Shown here: one piece after another, positions 5,200 through 45,158 of the stretch | How the letters are laid out: each line of letters opens with the position of its first letter | Position numbering within the stretch: position 1 is the stretch's first letter | DNA from: a virus | Taxonomy: Duplodnaviria; Heunggongvirae; Uroviricota; Caudoviricetes | Virus record (IMG/VR): IMGVR_UViG_2571042690_000019 | Reading direction: 5' to 3' (one strand) | Length of the DNA stretch: 64,000 bases | Made by a program: the position numbers and the translations under genes | The notes under the pieces: model-generated | Told to the model about the DNA's origin: nothing | Seen by the model: the letters and a program-made list of their open reading frames with translations, nothing else | The model's database searches: none

Positions 5200-5853
5200 C
5201 TATCCTTTCTTGAAATCGAAGTTGCCAGCAGTGGCCTGAAAGGTTCCCCCAGCCTTGAAAGCTATGTCCCCGTTAGCGGTGACAGCTATATTTTCCCCAT
5301 TAACATTGATGTTGTTGGCTGATTTGACGTTAACACTCCCTCCTGCATTCACGATTACATCAGCCGGACCAATGATATATATCTGCCCGGACTCATTCAT
5401 GCCAATCCTTGAGCCTGCTGCCGTATTGGCAATTTCATAGCCGCCACCAGCAGTTCGTACTTCAAGAATATTGTTGCGGTGAATAACGAAGTCTTTCGTT
5501 GCTGAGATTTGGGGGCGGGGAGGTGCTCCATCTACTTCCGGCGGCGTCCAGCCGTTGCCTTTGCCAGATGCTTCTGGTGCAACGTTTGGAATTCCTCCCG
5601 GTGCATCCTGAGCGGCACCAACTATCATTGGGCGTCTGGTGTCTATTCGACCGTTAACATCTAAATAAGGAAACTCTACCCAGACCAGGTCACCTTTGAC
5701 TGTAGGTACAAAAGCGTTCCCGATGGGTAACTGGTATTCCGCCCAGGGTAGATCGTCATCAGGAACGCCATTCCAGTCAGGTAAAACACGGACTTGAGCA
5801 CGCATAAGCCCTGCCGGGTGCACAGTTCCAACAATTTGCGCTCTACGCTTCAT
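5200..5853 (-). CDS. hypothetical protein, glycine-rich C-terminal repeats
   Basis: 217-aa ORF in an operon of four stop/start-coupled genes; no family recognised. Confidence 0.55.
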   Translation of the reverse strand: MKRRAQIVGTVHPAGLMRAQVRVLPDWNGVPDDDLPWAEYQLPIGNAFVPTVKGDLVWVEFPYLDVNGRIDTRRPMIVGAAQDAPGGIPNVAPEASGKGNGWTPPEVDGAPPRPQISATKDFVIHRNNILEVRTAGGGYEIANTAAGSRIGMNESGQIYIIGPADVIVNAGGSVNVKSANNINVNGENIAVTANGDIAFKAGGTFQATAGNFDFKKG

Positions 5854-6830
5854 TTGTTAGGCACTCCCAATATCATTCGTGTTGTGTAGCCTACGCGGTC
5901 CTCAAAGTGCGCAACATTTTTTACTATCAGCTTACGGGGCATTGATTCATCAATGCGGTTTTCCTGGTCATAGCGGTATACGATAATCTCTATTACCATC
6001 CCCGGTTTTATATCAGGATTGCCTGCGACTTCTATATCCATTTTGGGGACGAGAGACAGCTGCATATTGCGAAGAGTTTCCATATCAGAGTCGGATATAT
6101 AACGTACTGGGAGTGAGCTATCGCCATATTCGACGTAGCCATCGGTCATGGAATACCCAACAAAACGATATTGATTCTTTGCTGTTGTCGCATGTTCCTG
6201 TTGGAGTAGGCGCATTTTGGACAAAGTGTATTCTGCTTTAGGGTTATTCCCCTCGTAGGTAAATGATGGCGTTTGCTTCATCAGATCAGCCAGGGTGTAA
6301 AAGTTAAATTCCCCCCGGCATACCCAACATAATGCACCTTTGTCTCGCGCTATCTCCGAAAGCATTTTTGACGGTTTGTCACCGGCATTCAGATGATATG
6401 TAACTGCGCGTTTTAGCACGCTGCTGGTAATTTTAAGCTTGCCGGAATATGCCTTGAATATAGCGTCTGGTGTTTTGTTGGTATGTAAATTTGTGCGCGG
6501 GGAGGGGATCTTAAACCTGCGCACGTCTTCACTGACAGCAATAACGGTAACAACATCACCAGCCAGCATTGCAGACGTAACAAAGAAATCTGTTTTAAAA
6601 GTGCCTGCATTACCGTTTGGATCGCCCATTTCAGCCACCAGCGATGCACCGTATTTGGCTTTCCAGTCATCAATTACGGTGCCGGTAGCGTCATGAATTT
6701 CCAGTTTTAGCAAAGGGGCTTTGAGGCTGGTTTTTTCTACATATACTGCGGTAAAAATCCAGTCTCGTGGCACTTTGTTATCGTTAATGAGCACTGACTG
6801 TAGAAAATATTGTTGTAACTCCTGGGCCAC
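5850..6830 (-). CDS. hypothetical phage protein
   Basis: 326-aa ORF, start overlaps upstream stop. Confidence 0.55.
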   Translation of the reverse strand: MAQELQQYFLQSVLINDNKVPRDWIFTAVYVEKTSLKAPLLKLEIHDATGTVIDDWKAKYGASLVAEMGDPNGNAGTFKTDFFVTSAMLAGDVVTVIAVSEDVRRFKIPSPRTNLHTNKTPDAIFKAYSGKLKITSSVLKRAVTYHLNAGDKPSKMLSEIARDKGALCWVCRGEFNFYTLADLMKQTPSFTYEGNNPKAEYTLSKMRLLQQEHATTAKNQYRFVGYSMTDGYVEYGDSSLPVRYISDSDMETLRNMQLSLVPKMDIEVAGNPDIKPGMVIEIIVYRYDQENRIDESMPRKLIVKNVAHFEDRVGYTTRMILGVPNK

Positions 6831-6833
6831 TTA

Positions 6834-7601
6834 TCACCCCATAGATATCGAGGTTTCGGTAATAATACGTTTTGCGTCCAACTCCCATGCTGTGATCACG
6901 TCTGCAATCACACTTATCGGCGCTTGTGTGGCATAAATACGCTCTTCTCCAATTGGTGCTGAAACATCCGTAAAGCCGACTTCTTTGGCATCCTGTATCG
7001 AGCAAATCAGCGGGACCGGAACACGAACAAGGTGAGTGGTTGCTTCAAATTGTGTACCTGTCATCAGGCGAAGCCGTGCGCCCAGCGAATTACACATCAG
7101 ACTCATGGTCGCTTTATCAGTTGCCATTAACGTAACGTCATACGTCAGAATGGCCTGGGTGTATTCCAGTTCTGCTAAAGGCATTCCGGTATCCGGTTCG
7201 CAAAAACTGGCTACTTTTTTGCGGTCAATCTGCTGATCATCGTTGATATAATTGATATCCATAGTGCGTGAGATATTGACCAGGGGGAGAGCATCCCGGT
7301 TAATGTTCTGGTTTTCAGGTTTTCTCCCTTGCCCGGCATTTGCGCGACGAACTGCTTTAAGAAACTCGATCGCATTGTCGAAACGGGCCACATAGACACG
7401 CTCTGCTGGTGGACGATTCAAGAATGACGCAAAGCGTTTTTCTTCCGGCGCGGGGGCCACCAGTAAGATATCAGAAAAAATGTTGCTGATTAGCGTCGCA
7501 AACGCGTTATCCACGTTTTCAAAGCCCGTGGTCTGGAATTTTCCTGTGCGTGAGGTTTGCCATTCACCTGTTCGCGCCAGGAGGGTTTTATTTGAAGTCA
7601 T
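6834..7601 (-). CDS. hypothetical phage protein
   Basis: 255-aa ORF in the same operon. Confidence 0.55.
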   Translation of the reverse strand: MTSNKTLLARTGEWQTSRTGKFQTTGFENVDNAFATLISNIFSDILLVAPAPEEKRFASFLNRPPAERVYVARFDNAIEFLKAVRRANAGQGRKPENQNINRDALPLVNISRTMDINYINDDQQIDRKKVASFCEPDTGMPLAELEYTQAILTYDVTLMATDKATMSLMCNSLGARLRLMTGTQFEATTHLVRVPVPLICSIQDAKEVGFTDVSAPIGEERIYATQAPISVIADVITAWELDAKRIITETSISMG

Positions 7602-8401
7602 TCGATCACTCCGTTTTGAGTCGTATCAAAATTCCTGGCTGGTATGCAGTAGTAAAGCGAACCAACATGCTGTGTGCCGTAGCTAAAAATACGGTGCACG
7701 TACCACCAGCGGCGGGCTACGCCGTTTACCATCTCTTCATTCCATTCAAGAATTGAGCCGACGGGGACGTTATTTGCTGCAATACGCAGAATCAGAACAT
7801 CATCGGTTAAGCCATCCTGCTCACCGTCTGCGTCAATCGCATGGAAAGAGTCACGCCCGTCCGGGTTATCCAGCACATAAACGATTTCAGGTTCCTGGTA
7901 AGTCAGTTCGCGTTGGTTGTTATCCAGTTCAGTGAATGACTCTTCTCCTGTTTCGTCGCTGACTACCCCATATGTGCCAACATCTGGTCGATATAAGAGA
8001 GCCTGAAACGCGTCTGGGCTGGATTCAATAATCAGCATCCAGTCTGCGCGGATTTGGTCGTTAAAGGCTTTATGCCCGTTATAGCGTGCTTTTAACTGTG
8101 GAGTCGGTTCTCTGCCAGCCAGGGAAGATGGAAGTATGGCTATATCTGATTCGCCAGCATCCGGAGTAAGGCCACCGTTGCTATCAGCAAAATTATCATG
8201 GCTATCAGCTTTGGCGGCGGGTTGCTCTTCCAGAATGCTGAATGAATCCGAACCGGTATTGCCATGTTCCGGCGCGCCTCCTGCATTCGCTTCAATCGGC
8301 GCTGGCGTTTCTCTCTGCGTGCTGTCATGTTCTGACTCCTTACTTGCCAGGTTTGCATCGTCAGCAAACCATTCGTCAAAACGGCCCATAAGCATCCTCA
8401 A
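7598..8401 (-). CDS. hypothetical acidic phage protein
   Basis: 267-aa ORF, Asp/Glu-rich N-terminal half. Confidence 0.55.
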   Translation of the reverse strand: MRMLMGRFDEWFADDANLASKESEHDSTQRETPAPIEANAGGAPEHGNTGSDSFSILEEQPAAKADSHDNFADSNGGLTPDAGESDIAILPSSLAGREPTPQLKARYNGHKAFNDQIRADWMLIIESSPDAFQALLYRPDVGTYGVVSDETGEESFTELDNNQRELTYQEPEIVYVLDNPDGRDSFHAIDADGEQDGLTDDVLILRIAANNVPVGSILEWNEEMVNGVARRWWYVHRIFSYGTQHVGSLYYCIPARNFDTTQNGVIE

Positions 8402-8551: not shown

Positions 8552-8854
8552 ATGACCAAAAAAATTAACATAAAGGATTTCAGGGATGCGTGGCTTGATG
8601 ATTTTTTTGAATTTTCAACACCACATAGAAAGATACCTCCTGATATTCATATGACATTGTCACGGAAGTTGGACATTATCAATGCCGCAACTACCTGTAA
8701 GGATTTAAGATCACCACCAGGTAATCGGTATGAGGAACTGTCAGGGAAGCTAAATGGCTATTCATCAGTAAGGGTGAATAAGCAATATAGGTTAATTTTT
8801 AAGTGGGTTAACGGAAAGGCCGAGGACTTGTATCTCGACCCTCACAAATACTAA
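8552..8854 (+). CDS. higB: type II toxin HigB (RelE/ParE superfamily)
   Basis: 100 aa; PPGNRYEELSGKLNGYSSVRVNKQYRLIF matches the HigB killer family; toxin gene precedes antitoxin as in higBA. Confidence 0.82.
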   Translation: MTKKINIKDFRDAWLDDFFEFSTPHRKIPPDIHMTLSRKLDIINAATTCKDLRSPPGNRYEELSGKLNGYSSVRVNKQYRLIFKWVNGKAEDLYLDPHKY

Positions 8855-8924
8855 AACAGATACCCGGTTACGGACCGGGTTCTGACCAGAGTCCACTTAA
8901 TACGCACGCTAGTAAGGGCAAAAA

Positions 8925-9263
8925 ATGAAACAGGCAACCAGAAAACCGACGACCGTAGGTGATATCCTGCTGTACGAATACCTGGAGCCGTTAGAGCTGA
9001 AGATCAACGAGTTAGCAGAAATACTTCATGTTCATCGTAACACCGTAAGCGCTCTTGTTAATAACAATCGTAAGCTAACGATGGATATGGCATATCGCCT
9101 GGCAAAAGCATTCGATACTTCTGTAGATTTTTGGATTAATCTTCAGACCGCAGTAGATCTGTGGGAAGTCGAAAATGATATGCGCGTCCAGGAAGAGTTA
9201 AGTCGTATCAATACTGCTGAAAAATTTATTTCTCAGCGGAACCTGAATAAAAAAGCAGCCTGA
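8925..9263 (+). CDS. higA: type II antitoxin HigA (XRE-family HTH)
   Basis: 112 aa; HTH segment LKINELAEILHVHRNTVSALVNNNRKLTMDMAYRLAKAFDTSVDFWINLQ typical of HigA/VapI. Confidence 0.82.
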   Translation: MKQATRKPTTVGDILLYEYLEPLELKINELAEILHVHRNTVSALVNNNRKLTMDMAYRLAKAFDTSVDFWINLQTAVDLWEVENDMRVQEELSRINTAEKFISQRNLNKKAA

Positions 9264-9286
9264 TATAGTAAAACACATACAAAAAG

Positions 9287-9314
9287 CCCACTTAGCAAGT
9301 GGGCTTTCCTTTGT
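9287..9314 (+). terminator. Rho-independent terminator after higA
   Basis: GCCCACT-TAGCA-AGTGGGC hairpin followed by TTTCCTTTG. Confidence 0.6.
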
Positions 9315-9319
9315 AATTA

Positions 9320-9520
9320 ATGAACATTAAACCTATCCGTACAGAACAAGATTATGAGGCCGCACTGCGTGCGGTCGAACCGATGTTCGATAACGAACCG
9401 GAAATGAATACTCCGGAAGGTGATTTCTTTGAGGTTATGAGTCTTCTCATTGAGGAGTACGAGAAGAAACATTACCCAATTCAACCACCATCACCTGTTG
9501 AATCTTTTAACTATCCATAA
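9320..9520 (+). pseudogene. 3'-truncated XRE-family antitoxin-like gene (N-terminal domain only)
   Basis: 66 aa resembling the N-terminal part of HTH antitoxins (TEQDYEAAL..., NTPEGDFFEVMSLLIEEYEKKHYPI) but ending before any HTH domain, exactly where the low-GC gene begins. Confidence 0.4.
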
Positions 9521-9541
9521 TAAAAGTAATCAGGATAAGCT

Positions 9542-10270
9542 ATGATGTCAGAAAAAGTTAAAGATAATCCGTCTATAAATGAAACAGAACTAAAATCATT
9601 TTCTGAAATAATAAAAGATAAAATATTTAACAAGGTTTTTGCATATGTTGTCATTTCTTTTCTAATTTTTAACTGGAAGGATATTTTAATTATATTAAAG
9701 TCAAAGGACGACATCCTATATACATTATCTATTGTTTCTGTTGGTGGTAATGTCCCGTTCATTGATAATTGGATTGTATCCCCGTGGGTTTATCACGTTG
9801 TAATCCCATTTATTTATGGAGTATTTGCATCTGTGTTAGCTCCTGTTCTCACACTGAAGATATCTAAGCTAACAAGTAAATTATACACTGAAATAAGATA
9901 TTTAGATGAAGTTGCTGATTATGATAAAAGAATAGAATTGCAAAGAAAGAAAACAAAGTTAAATCAAGCAACCAATGACGCTAAATATTCAAAACAAATC
10001 TTAGATGAAAATGAAAATAAACTTAATGACTTGGTTACGAAACAGCGAGAAATTTGTGGCGCGATAAAACTATTGCATACTGATGTTGGCAGTATTATTG
10101 AACTATATAAAAATAAGGGGGTTAGCATTGAATCTCCGCAAGATTTATGTGATTTTATAGTCGCTATAAAAAGCACATCATTCTATAATGATGACAAGCA
10201 TTTTAATAAATTGGTGTCTGATATTTCCAGTTTGTTTGATAATACTGGAATTGATCTTTCAAAAAAATGA
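9542..10270 (+). CDS. low-GC hypothetical membrane protein (two predicted TM helices plus C-terminal coiled-coil region)
   Basis: 242-aa ORF with AGGA RBS, own terminator; visibly AT-rich versus flanks; hydrophobic segments VFAYVVISFLIFNW and VYHVVIPFIYGVFASVLAPVLTL. Confidence 0.65.
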   Translation: MMSEKVKDNPSINETELKSFSEIIKDKIFNKVFAYVVISFLIFNWKDILIILKSKDDILYTLSIVSVGGNVPFIDNWIVSPWVYHVVIPFIYGVFASVLAPVLTLKISKLTSKLYTEIRYLDEVADYDKRIELQRKKTKLNQATNDAKYSKQILDENENKLNDLVTKQREICGAIKLLHTDVGSIIELYKNKGVSIESPQDLCDFIVAIKSTSFYNDDKHFNKLVSDISSLFDNTGIDLSKK

Positions 10271-10276
10271 AAGCCC

Positions 10277-10316
10277 AGCATAAACTACTAGGCTATGTGT
10301 GGTTTATGCTTTTTTT
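10277..10316. terminator. bidirectional Rho-independent terminator
   Basis: AGCATAAAC...GTTTATGCT hairpin followed by TTTTTT; lies between convergent genes. Confidence 0.55.
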
Positions 10317-11497
10317 ACATACTCCATGAACATTTTTTCAGCTTGTGCTGGTGGTGTTCCAGCCATGACAAGCGCATCAATGAACGCCTGCTTCTTCAGT
10401 GCGAACTGATCGGCAAGGCGTTGCTGAAGCTCCTTGTTTTTCTGTTTCTCACGTTGCAAGGCCGCTTCTTTTGCTGCCGCCCGTTTTTTCTGTGCATCTG
10501 ACAACTTTCTGGCCTTGGTCAATTGGTCACGTAGTTTGTCGATCTTGCCGTTGTCCTTTGCCAGTTTTGTACTTAAAGCTGCCTGGCGCTTCTGATAGAG
10601 CCTCCATTCGCGTTTGGCGGCTTCAACGTTCGTTTTACTGCTACGATTGCGATTAAACTCCTTCTCGTCTTCTTTTGAGAAGTGTTTGGTTGTACGGCGG
10701 CGATCGTCACCAAATGCAATTTGCGTTGCAGCCTTTTGTAGCGCACGAGCAATACTCATTTGCCAACTGGCGGACTGTAACCGCGTCATTGAGTGGATCA
10801 CGTGTTTACAGGCGACGCCTTGCAGCTTCGGGTTGCGAACTTTTGGATAGGCGTATTCTTTTGGCGGTGCCAGGGCAAAGTTACCCGCAGTGGCGATGTA
10901 ACGATACCAGTATTGATGACGACCACAGTCACAATCGAAAGACACTCGCCCGGCGCACAGTGATTTAGTGATTTTGAGAGCTGATTTATCGTCTTCTGCG
11001 ATGTCATCAACCATCTGATCCCATTCTTCAAAGCGTATCCGGACGATATGGTGCTGGTGGACGGATATATCCGATGCTTCTACGCGGATATTAATCACAT
11101 TGTGGCGAAGAGATACGGGTGTAGCTCTTTTGATACCAGATCCGTCATCCACGGCGTTATTTGCACGCTTAATATCGATTGCCTGGCTGGATGCCACCAG
11201 CTGGGCGTATGTGATGCCAGCCGTCTTGCTGTCATATTTTTCGCGCGTTTTACTCCGTAGCTTTTCGAAACCTTTCAGGTCGTCTCGCGTGAAGAACGTG
11301 CCGCCTTTTTTCTTCCCTAACTTGAGAATATCTTCGGCGGATTTGTTCCTCAGTCTACCTGGCGTCAGCGTCCGGTGAGCTTGTCGGCGCTTACGGGTTT
11401 GTTCTTTCCTGATAAGGTCGAATAAACGCGTGAAGTCCTTAGAGGACAGGCCGTCAGTGATATAGCGCCCGTCCTGGTTTTTCAGGAAATCAGGCAT
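10304..11497 (-). CDS. hypothetical protein with SWIM-type zinc-finger-like motif and Lys/Arg-rich coiled-coil C-terminus
   Basis: 397 aa; CxC-x(n)-CxH pattern (FDCDCGRH ... VACKHVIH). Confidence 0.6.
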   Translation of the reverse strand: MPDFLKNQDGRYITDGLSSKDFTRLFDLIRKEQTRKRRQAHRTLTPGRLRNKSAEDILKLGKKKGGTFFTRDDLKGFEKLRSKTREKYDSKTAGITYAQLVASSQAIDIKRANNAVDDGSGIKRATPVSLRHNVINIRVEASDISVHQHHIVRIRFEEWDQMVDDIAEDDKSALKITKSLCAGRVSFDCDCGRHQYWYRYIATAGNFALAPPKEYAYPKVRNPKLQGVACKHVIHSMTRLQSASWQMSIARALQKAATQIAFGDDRRRTTKHFSKEDEKEFNRNRSSKTNVEAAKREWRLYQKRQAALSTKLAKDNGKIDKLRDQLTKARKLSDAQKKRAAAKEAALQREKQKNKELQQRLADQFALKKQAFIDALVMAGTPPAQAEKMFMEYVKKA

Positions 11498-11819
11498 TTT
11501 CTATCTCCGGTTCCGCGCTTGCGTAATCACGGATCTTGTTCCTCAGCCATGCCACATCAGGAAGAGTTAACGTGGTCCCTGCGGGCATTTCTTCAATTTC
11601 TGACTCATGGCCCACCAGCACCCGGAATACCCAGCGCAAATCTGCATTGCCATACGCCCTGTAGGCTGCAAGGTCTGAACGATATACTTCATCAATCTTT
11701 ATCGTGTACTGGAAATTATCAGAGTGATACTCCGATACCCGCTTAATCATTTCCTGGTGAAACAGCGCACGAAAAATATCGTCTTCAATGTACCTATCGT
11801 CGAGTCTGCTATAGCCCAT
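11490..11819 (-). CDS. hypothetical protein
   Basis: 109-aa ORF whose stop overlaps the start of the SWIM gene. Confidence 0.5.
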   Translation of the reverse strand: MGYSRLDDRYIEDDIFRALFHQEMIKRVSEYHSDNFQYTIKIDEVYRSDLAAYRAYGNADLRWVFRVLVGHESEIEEMPAGTTLTLPDVAWLRNKIRDYASAEPEIENA

Positions 11820-12011
11820 AACAAAGCCTCTCAGTCATAACCTGGGGGAAACTGTATGCAGGGTGTGAAATGCGAGAAACAGACAGGCCACCAGTTCAGG
11901 GGGATGTGGTTCATAAATCCCCTCACTGGTGACAAGTGACTTTCATTAATCTTTATGCGGGGGCCAGCTTCATTTGCTGGCATTAGATTAAAAATCAAAC
12001 GGAGTAAATGA

Positions 12012-12147: not shown

Positions 12148-12801
12148 TCAAAGTATCACGGTATCTTCATCAACTTCTTTCCCAGTCAGCGACTTTGGCT
12201 GGGAGGTGCCTGCTTTAACTTTTTCATGCCCAATAATGGACAGGAACGAAGCGAGTATGCCTGTTTTTTGCTCTTTCTCGACTGTACCGGTCATCTGCTC
12301 TACGTAATCCGCACTGGCAACATTGTGGTATACGGTCGCGTAGCAACACAGGATCATCAAAATATGTTCCGGCCTGATATCCTGCCAGTTCACCCGGTAA
12401 ACTTCTTCTCCGTTACCGTTGTATTCGGTGTCAACGATGGAGTCGGGAATTTCGAAAGCACCTTTATTGTTTTGCGGCAGGGATAATAGCTTCTGGAGTT
12501 TTAGCTCTCTGTATCTTTCCATCCCTACGATGATCGCAGCTCTGCCGTCGGCATGACGTGTCTTGAGTGTTACCTGGCTTGCTCCGGTGCCAGCGGAGAT
12601 CGTTGGCGTAATTTCGTCTACCAGCACCTTAAATTTGCTTTTCCGCAGGGCTGCTATAGCTGGAGGAATCTTTTGCTTTTGTTCCAATGCTGACGCGGGA
12701 AGGGGTTTTACTTCGTTAATCACGAGAGCACCGTCTTTCAGTATTGCAGTGAGCATTTGCGGTTTGCTGGTGGTCAGGCTGAATATTGCTATCTTCTCCA
12801 T
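12148..12801 (-). CDS. hypothetical protein
   Basis: ORF 12148..12843; start placed at internal Met (MEKIAIF) downstream of a hairpin. Confidence 0.5.
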   Translation of the reverse strand: MEKIAIFSLTTSKPQMLTAILKDGALVINEVKPLPASALEQKQKIPPAIAALRKSKFKVLVDEITPTISAGTGASQVTLKTRHADGRAAIIVGMERYRELKLQKLLSLPQNNKGAFEIPDSIVDTEYNGNGEEVYRVNWQDIRPEHILMILCCYATVYHNVASADYVEQMTGTVEKEQKTGILASFLSIIGHEKVKAGTSQPKSLTGKEVDEDTVIL

Positions 12802-13069
12802 TGTCCTTCCTCCACGGATGACGGATACAAAAAAAGGCCGCACATGGCGGCCTGCTTTGGCGTTATGACTCCCTACCGCGCTTCGGCTGAAAGTTAATCG
12901 TCAAAAGAACCTTCAACGGGAGCCGTTAGCGCGATGGATTATGTGCAGTTTGTGATTTCCAGAATAGTGTCAACCACTTTTTGAGGATTTTATTATTTGA
13001 CCGAAACTTGGCCTAAATCATGTTGATGTAGTTGATTGTTTTTATAACATAAAACTTCATTTTGTTTAC

Positions 13070-40796: not shown

Positions 40797-40872
40797 TGGT
40801 GGCCCCTACCGGACTTGAACCGGTGACCGTGCGATTATGAGTCGCCAGCTCTAACCACTGAGCTAAGGGGCC
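40797..40872 (-). tRNA. tRNA-Ile (anticodon CAU, ileX-like) or tRNA-Met
   Basis: GGCCCCTTAGCTCAGTGGTTAGAGC...CTCATAA...GGTTCAAGTCC...GGGGCCACCA; cloverleaf folds; near-identical to E. coli ileX as recalled. Confidence 0.75.
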
Positions 40873-40881
40873 AATTAGTTT

Positions 40882-40995
40882 TTATTTTCGACGCCTGAGA
40901 TTCTTCGCTACTTGTTCTACTCCGTATACGATCACAAGCAGAAATAGCAAAGACCATCCAGGGTTCTTATCAATATACGTCCAAAAATCCATCAT
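40882..40995 (-). CDS. possible small membrane peptide (36 aa)
   Basis: manual translation MMDFWTYIDKNPGWSLLFLLVIVYGVEQVAKNLRRRK; ATGA overlap with upstream ORF. Confidence 0.25.
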   Translation of the reverse strand: MMDFWTYIDKNPGWSLLFLLVIVYGVEQVAKNLRRRK

Positions 40996-41156
40996 GAGTT
41001 CCTGAACGCAGCTTTAATAATCGGCAATAGCAATACCACAGCTACTGAAACCAGTGCCCCATCAGCCAACACCGACATCACTTTGCTGGTGAAATCCACC
41101 AGCACGGACAAAACGAGAAAACCAATGGCGCACGCAATACGCGCCTTGCCAATCAT
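40992..41156 (-). CDS. possible small membrane peptide (52 aa)
   Basis: manual translation MIGKARIACAIGFLVLSVLVDFTSKVMSVLADGALVSVAVVLLPIIKAAFRNS; TAATG overlap with TerB-like gene stop. Confidence 0.35.
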   Translation of the reverse strand: MIGKARIACAIGFLVLSVLVDFTSKVMSVLADGALVSVAVVLLLPIIKAAFRNS

Positions 41157-41590
41157 TACAGATAATCTTCCACACGAAGGCCCAAACGACGGCCTACTTC
41201 TTCCAGTACTTTGTGTTCTGCTGGCTCGATTTCACCGTCCGCTTCTGCAATCGTCAGCATGTTAACGAATACTTCTTCCGCTTCTTTTGGATCATTTTTG
41301 ATATCTTCAATTTCGCGAAGGATATTCATGCGACCAACACGGAAACCAGCTTCCAGTTGCTCAGTAAAACGGGTGATTGTTGCGGTAATTTCGTTGCCAA
41401 AATGACTTAAGCGAGGATTAGAGCGGACAAGCTGATCAAGTTTCGCTGTTTCTTCCTTTTCGATTTCACCATCTGCGGCAGACACCAACAAACAGCCACC
41501 GATAATGGCCTCCATCAGATCGCGATTCTCAACCCTTTTCAGCTCTACTTTTGCTGAAGCGACTTTCTTACCGAAAAATTTACCGAACAT
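41156..41590 (-). CDS. TerB-like protein (tellurite-resistance TerB fold; P1 tciA-like)
   Basis: 144 aa with repeated ADGEIE-type acidic motifs; located in the tRNA cluster as tciA is in P1. Confidence 0.5.
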   Translation of the reverse strand: MFGKFFGKKVASAKVELKRVENRDLMEAIIGGCLLVSAADGEIEKEETAKLDQLVRSNPRLSHFGNEITATITRFTEQLEAGFRVGRMNILREIEDIKNDPKEAEEVFVNMLTIAEADGEIEPAEHKVLEEVGRRLGLRVEDYL

Positions 41591-41857
41591 TGGTTATCCC
41601 TCAATAAACATGACGTATTTATTAGGTTGCGGTGCCTGGTGCCTCCAGGTGACGTTAACCAGTTAACAATTAACGCCGGGATGTTTGACTTAACCACTAA
41701 GGAGGATTGTTTTAACTGTTCCGCGTGCGCATAGCCGCATTCACCGCAATGGTAAGAGCACTTGGCTGGCTGGGCGGCGATGACGCCTGTACGCATTTGG
41801 TGATCCGGTTCTGCTTCCGGCATTCGCTTAATTAGCCAAATACTCTTAACGTTGCAC

Positions 41858-41944
41858 TGGCGGAGAGTAATGGAATCGAACCATCATCGCTTGCGCAATG
41901 GGACGGTTTTCAAGACCGTTTGAGCACCATGCTCCCTACTCTCC
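41858..41944 (-). tRNA. tRNA-like gene, possibly tRNA-Ser (anticodon UGA), non-canonical A8
   Basis: 7-bp acceptor stem, anticodon arm ACGGT-CTTGAAA-ACCGT similar to E. coli serT, long variable arm, TTCGATT T-loop, 3' CCA; D-arm atypical. Confidence 0.35.
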
Positions 41945-42277
41945 AGTGATTGTGATGGTCGGTGCTGAACTCCGACACAGGGTTGTAGCAAGCCCCGCAA
42001 AGCGCGCACTACTGTAGTTGCGGCACATCAGCCTGTGCATTCACCACAATGTTGAGAACACTGGTTGTCACGCTGCAACGCAACATTTATTCGTAGATTG
42101 GGATATGACCCCGTTACGCCAGTGTTCTCAACGTTATAGTGCCGGTTACGGTTCCGGCCAGGCCTCTTCCTCAACGGGGTGTTCTCCATACGGACTACCG
42201 TTTATTGGTCGTTCCTGCGGTTTATGTTGTGAAGCCAGATGCTTATCTTCTGGTTGCTTCAAAGAGCTGCACTTCAT

Positions 42278-42345
42278 CACAACGGTAAGAGCACTCGATG
42301 CATTTAAGCCAAGCCCCATAAGGGAGAATGCCCTTACCTGTTGTG
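42278..42345. repeat. conserved-stem hairpin element (CACAACGGTAAGAGCAC ... GCCCTTACCTGTTGTG)
   Basis: imperfect inverted repeat sharing stem consensus with elements at 42474..42560 and 42917..42991. Confidence 0.5.
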
Positions 42346-42473
42346 TTGTGATGACCGGTGCTGATCTCCGGCTTGCGGTTATTTCAGACTCTCACGGGCG
42401 TTTAATTGCCCCGCCGAACAGCTCTTTTCCGCAATAGCTGCAATGTCTTTCGCGCATCAGCCTGCGCATTCAT

Positions 42474-42560
42474 CACAACGGTAAGGGTACTTCGTAGGGA
42501 TTCGAACCCTCTGCCAAGCTCGGCGATCTCCGACGTCGCAAAATACCCTTACCTGTTGTG
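42474..42560. repeat. conserved-stem hairpin element enclosing a tRNA-like T-arm fragment (GGGATTCGAACCC)
   Basis: CACAACGGTAAGGGTAC ... TACCCTTACCTGTTGTG inverted repeat, immediately downstream of tRNA-Thr on the minus strand. Confidence 0.5.
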
Positions 42561-42561
42561 C

Positions 42562-42637
42562 TGGTGCCGATTAACGGACTCGAACCGCTGACATCCTGCT
42601 TACAAGGCAGGCGCTCTACCAACTGAGCTAAACCGGC
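42562..42637 (-). tRNA. tRNA-Thr (anticodon UGU)
   Basis: GCCGGTTTAGCTCAGTTGGTAGAGC...CTTGTAA...GGTTCGAGTCC...CGGCACCA cloverleaf. Confidence 0.8.
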
Positions 42638-42639
42638 AT

Positions 42640-42715
42640 TGGCGATGGTGGATGGATTTGAACCATCGACCCGTTGATTAACAGTCAACCGCTCTAACCG
42701 CTGAGCTACACCATC
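42640..42715 (-). tRNA. tRNA-Asn (anticodon GUU)
   Basis: GATGGTGTAGCTCAGCGGTTAGAGC...CTGTTAA...GGTTCAAATCC...CACCATCGCCA cloverleaf. Confidence 0.8.
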
Positions 42716-42916
42716 ACTTGCCGGGTACGTCTCCGGCGAGGGCTTCCACCTCCGTATGCTTTTCGGCGCACCGCGCCCTGGGTGCAATTCGGTAACAGGG
42801 GATGCACAACCCTGGCTTCCAGCGTGATTAGCGCCTTCAGCATGACGGGATATACCCGTAGTAGGATGTTATCCCAGAAAGCCATTAACCAATGGCTGTT
42901 ACGCGGGAGGGACGTA

Positions 42917-42991
42917 ACAGGTAAGGGCGCTGACCAGAAAGACCTGACCCTTCTCATTCATCTGGTTAATCACACCAGCGCCCTTGCCTGT
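42917..42991. repeat. conserved-stem hairpin element (ACAGGTAAGGGCGCTG ... CAGCGCCCTTGCCTGT)
   Basis: 16-bp near-perfect inverted repeat with GGTAAGGG core. Confidence 0.5.
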
Positions 42992-43210
42992 TATGCCTCC
43001 CCGTTCCCTAATACACAGACGGGGACACTCTGCGGTCGATTTTTTGACGGGGGACGACTCATACCCCGTGGCGTCAGGCTTCTTAGGCCGCTACCATCAT
43101 CAGATCATCGTTTGCATTTACTTTAATGGTCGGGTTCTAAACCGCCGCAAAGTCGCTAACCATGACGAAAACCCTAAAAAAGCCCACCCGAAGATGGGCA
43201 AATACGCTAC

Positions 43211-43287
43211 ATCTCACACAAGAAAGAAGCCGACTGCCTGAGCTGGATTCACTTTCAAATGCCCGCTGAAAGGGATCACAAGTCGGC
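43211..43287. repeat. long perfect hairpin (15-bp arms AGAAAGAAGCCGACT / AGTCGGCTTCTTTCT) in non-coding region
   Basis: inverted repeat read directly; no supporting ORF in the surrounding 1.2 kb. Confidence 0.5.
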
Positions 43288-43517
43288 TTCTTTCTTGATG
43301 CGGCACTCTCTCCGCCCGTCACCGCTCTGTCTCGGTTGTCGCGTTTGCCACGCCAGCCGTAACGAGGTTTAAAGTCTTTGCACGTTTCCATCACTCGACT
43401 GCCGTCTGTGGCTGTTCGTTGCAGCGGGGGTGCCTCCCCCTGGGGATATCCCCGGCCTTACCCCATTCTTTCAAGACACAATGCAAGGCCACATCCGCAT
43501 AGGTGCATTACCGCAAC

Positions 43518-43572
43518 ATTAAGGAGACTCAGGGCAAAAGGTAACCGCCACAAAAATCCCTATGCCTCCTTA
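43518..43572. repeat. long perfect hairpin (13-bp arms CAACATTAAGGAG / CTCCTTAATGTTG)
   Basis: inverted repeat read directly. Confidence 0.5.
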
Positions 43573-43934
43573 ATGTTGAAGATGTGCATTGATGATTAGA
43601 TGCAGCATGTACCGTTACTCTCTGCCGGACCATCATCAATGAACACCTTAAAAAGACCTTCCGTGGCTCAACATGTATTGTCGTTTACTCCGCAAAGTGC
43701 TCTCTCTGAAACCACTTTCCGCACTAAACCTGTTGAACTTTGGTCTGCTCGGTGCCAAAGCGTGCTCTTGGTTTACTATACTTTTCTAACACTTTAATTT
43801 GTTAATTGCTGGTGGGCATACAATAACCAATAAGTGACTATCAAGCCCAGCAAGCGAAACGTGGGTACCGCCCACCAGCAAGGAAAATTCTATGTTAAGT
43901 CATCTTCACAATCAATACATTCAAATTGTGATTT

Positions 43935-43948
43935 TAGATTTCTAACAC
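43935..43948 (+). promoter_or_regulatory. operator-like motif AGATTTCTAACACA
   Basis: dispersed conserved motif at 3' side of gene 43950..45158. Confidence 0.4.
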
Positions 43949-43949
43949 A

Positions 43950-45158
43950 TTATTTCCCGTAAAGATCTTCTACACCCCCATTCTTCTTATCCCATTCGTT
44001 CGCCCATACCCGGCAAGCGTCAATGATTTCCTGACGACGATCTCCTTGCATGAACGGAATGCTTTCATGGAAACAGCTTGGAATGCAGGCCACACTGAAT
44101 ACAGTATCAAACTCCGTCTGCTTGATTGCCTCCAGCGTCTCCGGACGCATTTTTAATTCATCGATTGGCGCATCCTTAGAGTCCATAATCCGGCGATATA
44201 AGCGCGGAAAATCCGTCTCCAGGTACGCCATAATTTTATCTGCGAGACATTCGTCTATGTCGGTATTCCAGTCCTTTTCGAAGCCCGGCAGGCGATAGTA
44301 AAGCGGCGTTCCCCATACCGATGGGATCACATCCATCGTTAACAGGCGATTAGTTCTGATTTGTTGATGGTAATTAGCCGTCAGCAGTGCTTCGCCACGC
44401 TGCCCAGTTTCCGCAACCAGGCTGTGCGGATACTCATGGATGTAGGCAATGGCATCCCTTCCATCATACATAAGTGGAAATGTCTCTGGTCTTTGTCCCA
44501 TGCCACAAGCACGGTTCAGATCGTGACCAAGCTGTGAACACTCTCGCTTTAATGTTTCGATAATGCTCTGCGCTGTAGCCAACTTTTTACGCAGTGTGAC
44601 GCCTTCGCCTTGATAATCAATGCATTGCTGATTGAGCTTGGTTAAACGCTCTTTTAGTTCCCGGCGCTCTCTTTTCAGCGTGCGGTTATCCTTCTCCGCA
44701 ACATCCAGCCGCTTTGTCAGGCTTGGCGGATAGTCTTTTTTGTAACGGTTCAAATCGGCTTCGGCAGATTTACGCAGTGTATTTGCCTGTTCAAGACGCG
44801 CTTCCAGATTGCCGATCTCATTACGCATATTCGCGGCAAATTGATTAACTGCATCGCCCAGGCTTTCAACTGTCGCTGATACGCCTGTGACTTGTGAAAA
44901 ACGGATCAAGCCATCATTAACGGCTTGTTGGTATTCCTCAAACTGATCCACCAGCTTATTGTAATCAACTGCCCCATCATCAAGCAGCTTGTTGATTTCC
45001 GCCACTAGGTTATCTGTAGTGGCAATGACACTCTCGTGCAGTCGCTTTGACAGGTCATCACCCGGATTCCGTTTCTGTATAAGAGCGATTTGTGTGCGCA
45101 GCGTTTCAATTGCTGTCGAGATAATTTCCAGATTAGAAGTATCAGTGTGTTGACTCAT
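43950..45158 (-). CDS. hypothetical protein, N-terminal coiled coil, C-terminal globular domain
   Basis: 402-aa ORF flanked on both sides by operator-like motifs. Confidence 0.6.
   Translation of the reverse strand: MSQHTDTSNLEIISTAIETLRTQIALIQKRNPGDDLSKRLHESVIATTDNLVAEINKLLDDGAVDYNKLVDQFEEYQQAVNDGLIRFSQVTGVSATVESLGDAVNQFAANMRNEIGNLEARLEQANTLRKSAEADLNRYKKDYPPSLTKRLDVAEKDNRTLKRERRELKERLTKLNQQCIDYQGEGVTLRKKLATAQSIIETLKRECSQLGHDLNRACGMGQRPETFPLMYDGRDAIAYIHEYPHSLVAETGQRGEALLTANYHQQIRTNRLLTMDVIPSVWGTPLYYRLPGFEKDWNTDIDECLADKIMAYLETDFPRLYRRIMDSKDAPIDELKMRPETLEAIKQTEFDTVFSVACIPSCFHESIPFMQGDRRQEIIDACRVWANEWDKKNGGVEDLYGK

What the first reader, a model, noticed from the sequence alone, without database searches (positions are those of the whole stretch)
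10304..11819. Two-gene operon encoding a SWIM-zinc-finger-like protein of unknown function
A 109-aa protein is coupled to a 397-aa protein carrying a CxC-x(n)-CxH pattern (FDCDCGRH...CKHVIH) and a long Lys/Arg-rich coiled-coil tail. It lies in the accessory stretch between the TA islet and the secreted-protein genes and has no obvious phage-core role.
Basis: seen in the sequence. Interest (0 to 1): 0.45.

Follow-up and report, generated by a model that had tools for sequence, protein, structure and literature searches.

The report
Phage P1 tail genes 26 and 25
These two genes are not an accessory operon: they are the D6/P1 late morphogenesis genes 26 (a solved baseplate "plug") and 25 ("tail stability"), and gene 25 really does carry an invariant SWIM-like zinc-finger signature, although what it does is still unknown.

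Summary
On the minus strand, a 109-aa ORF (11490..11819) overlaps a 397-aa ORF (10304..11497) by 8 nt. The larger protein has C189-x-C191-x38-C230-x-H232 and a basic helical tail.

The window is phage D6-like (98.7% nt). The ORFs are D6 orf75/orf74, which are P1 genes 26 and 25. Gp26 is the T4 gp53-like baseplate plug solved in P1 cryo-EM (PDB 9ay5/9vzk). Gene 25 is the amber-defined "tail stability" gene.

The 26-25 pair occurs in 190 of 192 related loci. The ancestral order is pacB-mat-26-25-7-24-6-5. In D6 and this window a toxin-antitoxin cassette was inserted between genes 25 and 7, which makes the pair look isolated.

Gp25 is absent from both P1 atomic models and gives only a weak signal in virion proteomics. 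I infer a basic, zinc-stabilised, low-copy or transient assembly factor for tail completion or head-tail joining. The identification is already known; the residual interest is modest.

The parts
11490..11819 (-). Gene 26 homologue (109 aa, pI 4.8): T4 gp53-like / LysM-like baseplate 'plug'.
   Evidence: 99.1% identical to D6 orf75. Matches PDB 9ay5_S/9vzk Gp26 at E = 1.4e-16 and phrog_1269 'baseplate wedge subunit' at 1.4e-35. The Pfam hits Phage_gp53 (0.054) and Phage_tail_X (0.095) are below cut-off.
10304..11497 (-). Gene 25 homologue (397 aa, 45.5 kDa, pI 10.1): 'tail stability' protein.
   Evidence: 99.5% identical to D6 orf74 and 57% to P1 gp25 over aa 1-334. Matches phrog_1722 at 4e-197. 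No Pfam, NCBIfam or PDB sequence match.
11490..11497 (-). 8-nt overlap of the gene 26 stop with the gene 25 start (translational coupling).
   Evidence: In related loci the 26-25 spacing is -8..+17 nt in 174 of 188.
10712..11215 (-). Alpha/beta core of gp25 (aa 95-262) with the SWIM-like module.
10802..10933 (-). Putative zinc site C189-x-C191 ... C230-x-H232, with a conserved 38-aa insert (R199, E214, P218, N222, P223, G227).
   Evidence: Invariant columns. Motif present in 364 of 364 family members. In the full-length AF2 model CxC lies at the end of strand 185-189 and CKH at the start of helix 231-239; the core model agrees.
10364..10627 (-). Basic helical / coiled-coil segment of gp25 (aa 291-378; 24 K+R, net +13).
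   Evidence: Length and sequence vary across the family.
10307..10363 (-). C-terminal helical hairpin of gp25 (aa 379-397), helix-turn-helix-like in distant members.
   Evidence: Alignment. Pfam HTH-type hits are all below threshold (HTH_10 at 0.0017, IF2_N at 0.03).
10272..10294 (-). Terminator-like hairpin just downstream of gene 25, between it and the convergent orf73.
   Evidence: and the sequence. Consensus match only.
12148..12843 (-). mat homologue directly upstream of gene 26 (context: ancestral pacB-mat-26-25 order).
   Evidence: 98.6% identical to D6 Mat. mat precedes g26 in most related loci.
8552..10270 (+). Opposite-strand insertion (TA toxin, HTH antitoxin, truncated orf72, orf73) that splits genes 26-25 from 7-24-6-5.
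   Evidence: In P1 and 63 of 97 loci gene 7 starts within 20 nt of the gene 25 stop; D6-type loci carry a 0.3-2.2 kb insert.
5200..8389 (-). Rest of the ancestral operon: gene 7 (stopper, 7598..8389), gene 24 (terminator, 6834..7601), gene 6 (hub, 5850..6830), gene 5 (spike, 5200..5853).
   Evidence: 98.9-100% identical to the D6 proteins. Roles are taken from P1 cryo-EM (PMC12810830).

Best explanation
WHAT IT IS (shown). These are the first two genes of the ancestral P1-type late morphogenesis operon (mat-)26-25-7-24-6-5, in a phage D6-like phage-plasmid. Gene 26 encodes the small acidic T4 gp53-like 'plug'; in P1, six copies glue the baseplate wedges to the hub. Gene 25 encodes the 'tail stability' protein. 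It has four parts: an N-terminal helical region, an alpha/beta core with an invariant C-x-C-x38-C-x-H signature laid out like a SWIM zinc finger, a variable Lys/Arg-rich long helix, and a small C-terminal helical hairpin. The pair looks like an isolated two-gene operon only because a TA/orf72/orf73 cassette was inserted on the other strand between genes 25 and 7 in the D6 lineage.

HOW IT MOST LIKELY WORKS (inferred). Gp25 is not a stoichiometric building block. It is a zinc-stabilised, strongly basic, low-copy or transient assembly factor that acts late in tail completion or head-tail joining. My preferred version (about 0.35) is that it escorts or positions the very acidic ring-forming partners encoded on either side of it, chiefly the gp7 stopper and possibly the gp26 plug. 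The conserved 38-aa insert in the zinc module would be the binding surface, and the basic helix would hold acidic protein or DNA. Without gp25, tails are not properly capped or joined and appear unstable.

Identity is about 0.97 certain. 'Real zinc-binding SWIM-like module' is about 0.8. The specific partner and step are about 0.35.
For: Identity:
- 98.7% nt identity to D6 and the D6 annotation.
- Protein identities to D6 and tblastn to P1 gene 25.
- PDB Gp26 match, PHROG matches, P1 operon annotation.

Core status:
- g26 and g25 are both present, in that order, in 190 of 192 loci; 174 of 188 pairs are spaced -8..+17 nt.
- The family has 655 50%-identity representatives, nearly all of the 150 listed 330-450 aa long.
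- Gp25 is the most conserved of the six operon proteins (median distance 0.83).
- Amber mutants define genes 25 and 26 as essential (PMC10695390).

Zinc module:
- Invariant C, C, C, H, present in 364 of 364 members.
- The ligands sit at a strand end and a helix start.
- A BFVD hit is named 'SWIM-type domain-containing protein', and UniRef gives the same name to three distant members.

Not a stoichiometric part:
- Gp25 is absent from two P1 atomic models that place almost all other virion proteins (PMC12810830; bioRxiv 10.1101/2025.07.21.665459).
- It gave only 2 peptides and 8.4% coverage in virion LC-MS/MS, and HHpred found no role (PMC9024508).

Partner hints:
- The GenBank phenotype label 'tail stability' is shared with genes 7 and 24.
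- Gene 7 is immediately downstream in 63 of 97 loci.
- pI is 9.4-10.8 for gp25 against 4.05-4.73 for gp7 and a median of 5.5 for gp26.
- The distance matrix of gp25 correlates best with gp7 (r = 0.966, partial r = 0.66).
Against: - No experiment or complex prediction links gp25 to any partner; structure jobs were exhausted before a complex could be tried.
- The mirror-tree signal is confounded by gene adjacency and by saturation in gp24 and gp26.
- In the large Acinetobacter-type clade no gp7 homologue follows gene 25. The 182-aa ORF found there is not detectably related to gp7 (hhalign probability 0.13). Gene 26 adjacency, by contrast, is universal, which favours a gp26 partnership.
- The phenotype label 'tail stability' comes from record annotation; the primary paper (Walker & Walker 1983) was not readable here.
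- P1 CRISPRi knock-down of gene 25 lowered plating only about 10-fold (PMC10695390).
- Pfam SWIM does not match even at E <= 10. Zinc binding is untested.
- Two peptides in CsCl-purified virions could equally mean a genuine minor virion protein.
Confidence: 0.55

Rival explanations
1. Gp25 is a dedicated chaperone or assembly catalyst for the gp26 plug, acting in the baseplate. The basic protein binds the acidic plug, delivers it between hub and wedges, and then leaves. A badly plugged baseplate fires prematurely, which would read as 'unstable tails'.
For: - g26 is upstream of g25 in 190 of 192 loci, and 174 of 188 pairs are spaced -8..+17 nt.
- The two genes overlap by 8 nt in this window.
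- The charges are opposite: pI 10.1 against 4.8.
- The plug holds the wedge to the hub, and contraction separates the two (PMC12810830).
Against: - The annotated phenotypes differ: gene 26 is 'baseplate', gene 25 is 'tail stability'.
- The partial distance correlation between g25 and g26 is negative (-0.28), although g26 is short and noisy.
- Some gp26 family members are basic (pI up to 9.7).
Confidence: 0.25
2. Gp25 is a genuine minor virion protein that binds DNA, either at the neck or in the tail lumen, or as an ejected pilot or DNA-end protein. It would be invisible to symmetrised cryo-EM.
For: - It was detected in CsCl-purified virions, with a peptide count like that of 3-6-copy proteins (PMC9024508).
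- It has pI 10, a zinc finger, a basic helix and an HTH-like C-terminal hairpin.
- The gene sits among completion and joining genes: pacB-mat-26-25-7-24.
Against: - The mutant class is a visible tail defect, not normal-looking but dead particles (annotation).
- The HTH-like hits are all below threshold.
- There is no nucleic-acid-binding evidence.
Confidence: 0.12
3. One reading: an accessory (moron-like) two-gene operon of unknown function with no phage-core role.
For: It lies next to a TA islet and other variable genes. There is no Pfam domain.
Against: - The pair is conserved in 190 of 192 related loci and belongs to the late structural operon.
- Gp26 is a solved baseplate protein.
- Genes 25 and 26 are defined by amber mutants (PMC10695390).
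Confidence: 0.02
4. The CxC...CxH pattern is not a metal site. It could be a structural coincidence or a disulfide, or the fold may only resemble SWIM superficially.
For: - Pfam SWIM gives no hit at E <= 10.
- The spacer of 36-44 residues lies outside the canonical range.
Against: - All four residues are invariant in 364 of 364 members at down to 21% identity.
- Three of the four Cys in the protein are in the motif.
- The top PDB hit is a SWIM protein with both models.
- UniRef gives SWIM-type names to relatives.
Confidence: 0.15

Closest known systems
Phage D6 orf74 / orf75 (YP_009914751.1, YP_009914752.1)
   Same: 99.5% and 99.1% protein identity, with the same neighbours (mat upstream, TA/orf73 insert downstream).
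   Different: Essentially none in these genes. The neighbouring orf72 is truncated in the window.
Phage P1 gp25 (gene 25, 'tail stability', YP_006549.1)
   Same: 57% identity over aa 1-334, the same CxC...CKH block, about the same length (405 aa), the same position after gene 26.
   Different: The last ~60 residues have diverged. In P1 gene 7 follows gene 25 after 3 nt; here 1.9 kb of opposite-strand genes intervene. In P1 mat lies elsewhere.
P1 Gp26 baseplate plug (PDB 9ay5, 9vzk) / T4 gp53 / P2 gpX-type LysM-like proteins
   Same: Sequence match to P1 Gp26 at E = 1.4e-16. Weak Pfam similarity to Phage_gp53 and Phage_tail_X. A small acidic protein encoded next to completion genes.
   Different: 109 aa against 125 aa in P1. 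The Pfam gp53 and tail_X scores are below the curated cut-offs.
SWIM zinc fingers (Pfam PF04434; ZSWIM8, PDB 9rwz)
   Different: No Pfam HMM match. The spacer is 36-44 residues, against about 6-25 in canonical SWIM (from memory of Makarova et al. 2002), and the insert is itself highly conserved. The context is a phage tail operon rather than a SWI2/SNF2 ATPase, transposase or ubiquitin ligase.
Non-structural tail/hub assembly factors such as T4 gp51 and gp26 (the analogy proposed for P1 in PMC9024508)
   Same: Works-like only: essential for morphogenesis but not seen as an ordered virion component.
   Different: No sequence or fold relationship was tested or claimed.

Membership tests
P1 gp25 'tail stability' family (PHROG 1722) | Significant full-length sequence similarity to P1 gp25. 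| tested here: met
   tblastn 57.3% identity over aa 1-334, E = 3e-113. phrog_1722 E = 4e-197, residues 2-396.
P1 gp25 'tail stability' family (PHROG 1722) | Encoded immediately downstream of the gene 26 homologue in the late morphogenesis operon. | tested here: met
   8-nt overlap here. g26 precedes g25 in 190 of 192 loci.
P1 gp25 'tail stability' family (PHROG 1722) | Loss gives a tail-defective (unstable tail) phenotype. | not testable with these tools
   Known only for P1, from record annotation and from PMC10695390 (amber mutants).
P1 Gp26 / T4 gp53-like baseplate plug | Sequence similarity to the solved P1 Gp26 chain. | tested here: met
   9ay5_S, E = 1.4e-16, residues 4-99. phrog_1269 at 1.4e-35.
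P1 Gp26 / T4 gp53-like baseplate plug | Match to Pfam Phage_gp53 (PF11246) above the gathering score. | tested here: not met
   13.6 bits against a cut-off of 21, E = 0.054. The link to T4 gp53 rests on published HHpred and cryo-EM work on P1 (PMC9024508, PMC12810830).
SWIM zinc finger (PF04434) | C-x-C-x(n)-C-x-H ligand signature, conserved across homologues. | tested here: met
   Present in 364 of 364 members and invariant in A1, A2 and A7.
SWIM zinc finger (PF04434) | Canonical short spacer (about 6-25 residues; from memory of Makarova et al. 2002). | tested here: not met
   The spacer is 36-44 residues, and 37-38 in 355 of 364.
SWIM zinc finger (PF04434) | Match to the Pfam profile. | tested here: not met
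   No hit at E <= 1 for the whole protein, and none at E <= 10 for the isolated module, an insert-deleted construct or distant homologues.
SWIM zinc finger (PF04434) | SWIM-like fold (beta strands followed by a helix that carries CxH). | tested here: inconclusive
SWIM zinc finger (PF04434) | Binds one zinc ion. | not testable with these tools
   Needs ICP-MS or a structure.
   Present in 190 of 192 loci in a fixed operon position. It is the most conserved of the six operon proteins.
Lambda gpG/GT-type tail assembly chaperone | Encoded directly upstream of the tape-measure gene. | tested here: not met
   The D6 tape-measure gene sit is at 40834-44616, about 25 kb from gene 25 at 69466-70659. 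sit was not among the families scanned in the synteny screen. A frameshift was not examined.

The most novel reading that the evidence does not exclude
Gp25 is a zinc-finger DNA-binding minor virion protein at the DNA-filled neck or in the tail lumen. It would tether or pilot the genome end through the gp7 stopper, and could be the never-identified protein reported to accompany P1 and transducing DNA ends (from memory of the classical P1 literature). That would account for its essentiality, its weak MS signal in virions and its invisibility in symmetrised cryo-EM.
Probability: 0.1. Interest if true: 0.7.

Novelty: already known. Interest (0 to 1): 0.3.

Why it matters
The identification corrects an 'accessory operon' call. 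These are core tail and baseplate genes of a P1/D6-type phage-plasmid, split from their operon by a TA-cassette insertion.

One point goes a little beyond the record. P1 gene 25 is essential, and it is the most conserved protein of its operon. Yet it is missing from both near-complete P1 atomic models, and published HHpred analysis gave it no role. Showing that its most conserved block is an invariant SWIM-like Cys3His site with a conserved 38-residue insert gives four residues to mutate. It also gives concrete partner hypotheses (gp7, gp26, DNA) for one of the last unplaced morphogenesis proteins of a classic model phage.

Tried and rejected
- Pfam and NCBIfam scans of gp25, of the isolated zinc module, of an insert-deleted construct and of distant homologues found no SWIM or any other family.
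- PDB sequence searches with the single protein and with a 42-sequence profile gave only noise: pectin lyase at E = 0.04, ClpC at 0.6.
- PADLOC gave one weak hit, PDC-S66 at E = 0.007 with no stretch passing on its own, inside the low-complexity basic helix. I rejected it as compositional.
- The C-terminal hairpins of distant members gave only sub-threshold HTH-type Pfam hits, so this is a resemblance and not membership.
- I tested whether the 182-aa ORF after gene 25 in Acinetobacter-type phages is a diverged gp7. hhalign gave probability 0.13, so this is not supported.
- A P1-type late-promoter motif (AATGACTA-N4-TANNNT) was not enriched: 19 matches against 15.5 expected. No convincing site was found upstream of gene 26 or gene 7. 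The sigma-70 scan was also at background.
- The afdb50 fold library was unavailable.
- Lobocka 2004 and Walker & Walker 1983 are not held, so the phenotype wording comes from GenBank notes.
- The 'MvaT transcriptional regulator' label on the Xanthomonas phage Rb1 homologue looks like a compositional misannotation.
- A scaffolding-protein reading (basic helix plus terminal hairpin, gene near the capsid gene in some phages) was considered and dropped. P1 gene 25 mutants are filed as tail mutants, not head mutants, and the canonical neighbours are genes 26 and 7.

Full report
**1. The observation**

Both ORFs are on the minus strand. The 109-aa ORF runs 11490..11819 and the 397-aa ORF runs 10304..11497. 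They overlap by 8 nt, and a GGAG lies upstream of the second start.

The larger protein reads ...RVSFDCDCGRHQYWYRY...GVACKHVIH..., so the motif is C189-x-C191-x38-C230-x-H232. It has only four cysteines, three of them in this motif. Residues 291-378 carry 24 Lys/Arg in 88 residues (net +13) and are predicted as long helices. The whole protein has pI 10.1; the small protein has pI 4.8.

**2. Identity**

The 1.8-kb stretch is 98.7% identical to phage D6. D6 annotates the two genes as orf75 'similar to P1 gene 26' and orf74 'similar to P1 gene 25'. The window proteins are 99.1% and 99.5% identical to them.

- The 397-aa protein aligns to P1 gene 25 at 57% identity over residues 1-334 (E = 3e-113). 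It matches PHROG 1722 end to end (4e-197).
- The 109-aa protein matches the solved P1 baseplate chain Gp26 (PDB 9ay5_S/9vzk, E = 1.4e-16) and PHROG 1269. Its Pfam similarity to T4 gp53 and P2 tail protein X is below cut-off.

In P1 the late promoter LP26 drives 26-25-7-24-6-5. P1 cryo-EM assigns gp26 as the six-fold 'plug' between wedge and hub, gp7 as the stopper, gp24 as the tail terminator, gp6 as the hub and gp5 as the spike (PMC12810830; bioRxiv 10.1101/2025.07.21.665459).

**3. Why it looked like an isolated accessory operon**

In the window, genes 7, 24, 6 and 5 lie at 7598..8389, 6834..7601, 5850..6830 and 5200..5853 on the same strand. They are separated from gene 25 by plus-strand genes at 8552..10270: a RelE/HigB-like toxin, an HTH antitoxin, a truncated orf72 and orf73.

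I fetched 192 related loci from IMG/VR and phage records and labelled their ORFs with iterated profiles built from D6 proteins.

- g25 and g26 were each found in 190 loci, in the order g26 then g25 on one strand wherever both were found.
- The dominant ancestral order is pacB-mat-26-25-7-24-6-5-23-22-21.
- The 26-25 spacing is -8..+17 nt in 174 of 188 loci.
- Gene 7 starts within 20 nt of the gene 25 stop in 63 of 97 loci. D6-type loci carry inserts of 0.3-2.2 kb.

The window keeps the ancestral mat-26-25 order (mat at 12148..12843). The TA cassette is a lineage-specific insertion into a core operon.

**4. The zinc-finger claim**

The family is large: 301 close clusters, and 655 representatives at 50% identity with E <= 1e-3. 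No Pfam or NCBIfam model covers it.

- In a 24-sequence alignment the block S186...H232 is the most conserved part of the protein.
- In a 17-sequence alignment that reaches 21% identity only 13 columns are invariant. They include C189, C191, C230 and H232, plus R199, E214, P218, N222, P223 and G227 inside the spacer.
- All 364 full-length members held, and all 113 unique locus copies, have C-x-C-x(36-44)-C-x-H. The spacer is 37-38 residues in 355 of them.
- AlphaFold2 gave pLDDT 76 for the full length and pLDDT 84, pTM 0.83 for residues 60-290. It places CxC at the end of a beta strand and CKH at the start of a helix.
- Foldseek against viral models gave weak hits to small phage proteins. One of them is named 'SWIM-type domain-containing protein'.
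- UniRef uses that same name for three distant family members.

Against membership, Pfam SWIM does not match at E <= 10 even on the isolated or insert-deleted module. The spacer is also longer than the canonical range (from memory). I therefore call it a SWIM-like Cys3His module with a conserved insert. A zinc site is very likely, but it is unproven and this is not a curated-family member.

**5. What is known about gp25**

- GenBank labels gene 25 'tail stability', like gene 7, while gene 24 is 'baseplate or tail stability'.
- Genes 25 and 26 were found as amber mutants and are treated as essential, although CRISPRi knock-down lowered plating only about 10-fold (PMC10695390).
- Gp25 gave two peptides (8.4% coverage) in purified virions, and HHpred gave no role. 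The authors suggested either a diverged structural part or a chaperone/cofactor (PMC9024508).
- Neither P1 cryo-EM study models it, although together they place nearly every other head, neck, tail and baseplate protein.

**6. Mechanism (inference)**

Gp25 is always basic (pI 9.4-10.8). Gp7 is always very acidic (pI 4.05-4.73) and gp26 is mostly acidic (median 5.5). Gp25 is the most conserved of the six operon proteins. Its pairwise-distance matrix correlates best with gp7 (r = 0.966, partial r = 0.66) and worst with gp26 and gp24. That test is weak: the genes are adjacent, and gp24 and gp26 distances are saturated or noisy.

On the other side, gene 26 adjacency is universal. A gp7 homologue is not detectable after gene 25 in the Acinetobacter-type clade.

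I commit to a zinc-stabilised, basic, low-copy or transient assembly factor that acts in tail completion or head-tail joining, most likely with gp7 (about 0.35). The rivals are a gp26/baseplate chaperone (about 0.25) and a DNA-binding minor virion protein (about 0.12).

**7. Verdict**

The SWIM-like reading is largely supported. 'Accessory, no core role' is refuted. The genes are already known and annotated. The residual interest is the unresolved role of a highly conserved zinc-finger morphogenesis protein of phage P1.

Noticed in passing
window 8552..10270 (+): A RelE/HigB-like toxin (8552..8854), an HTH antitoxin (8925..9263), a short orf72 remnant and the 242-aa orf73 (phrog_8191, function unknown, no PADLOC hit) lie on the opposite strand, inside what is a contiguous 25-7 junction in P1 and most relatives. 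A mobile cassette has split a core late operon.
   Followed up: partly
window 9320..9520 (+): The orf72 homologue is 66 aa here and 119 aa in D6. After about codon 62 the window diverges from D6 and lacks roughly 200 nt, so the C-terminal part is lost. The remaining N-terminus matches positions 1-65 of the PADLOC defence protein PD-Lambda-2_B (E = 2.5e-16).
   Followed up: partly
window 12148..12843 (-): The mat ('maturation control') homologue sits directly upstream of gene 26, as in most distant relatives (pacB-mat-26-25...). In P1, by contrast, the region upstream of gene 26 holds pmgL and other pmg genes, not mat. The mechanical ORF (GTG start, 231 aa) is 14 codons longer than the D6 annotation (217 aa).
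   Followed up: partly
window 11923..11939: A near-perfect 17-bp palindrome (TCACTTGTCACCAGTGA) lies about 100 nt upstream of the gene 26 start. It is unique in the window (0.11 expected by chance). P1 has a C1 operator and a late promoter at the equivalent place. Its function was not established.
   Followed up: partly
window 10272..10294 and 9281..9309: GC-rich hairpins with T-runs lie between convergent genes (orf73 and gene 25) and after the antitoxin. They look like bidirectional terminators. If they work, the 26-25 transcript would end before gene 7, which would then need its own promoter. None was identified.
   Followed up: no
L004 5699..6247; L003 8884..9387; about 80 Acinetobacter-type IMG/VR loci (e.g. 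L178 11121..11669): In the Acinetobacter/Xanthomonas-type relatives, gene 25 is followed by a conserved 167-182-aa ORF ending ...NRRDDLxxSP, and then by the major capsid gene. This ORF is not detectably related to gp7 (hhalign probability 0.13).
   Followed up: partly
L003 7800..8879 (Xanthomonas phage Rb1, PQ569993): The gp25-family member of phage Rb1 is deposited as 'transcriptional regulator MvaT'. This is probably a compositional misannotation caused by the basic tail.
   Followed up: no
distant family members P0190, P0152: Some distant gp25 homologues carry two copies of the C-terminal helix-turn-helix-like hairpin, separated by charged linkers. The hairpin is therefore a modular, repeatable unit.
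   Followed up: no
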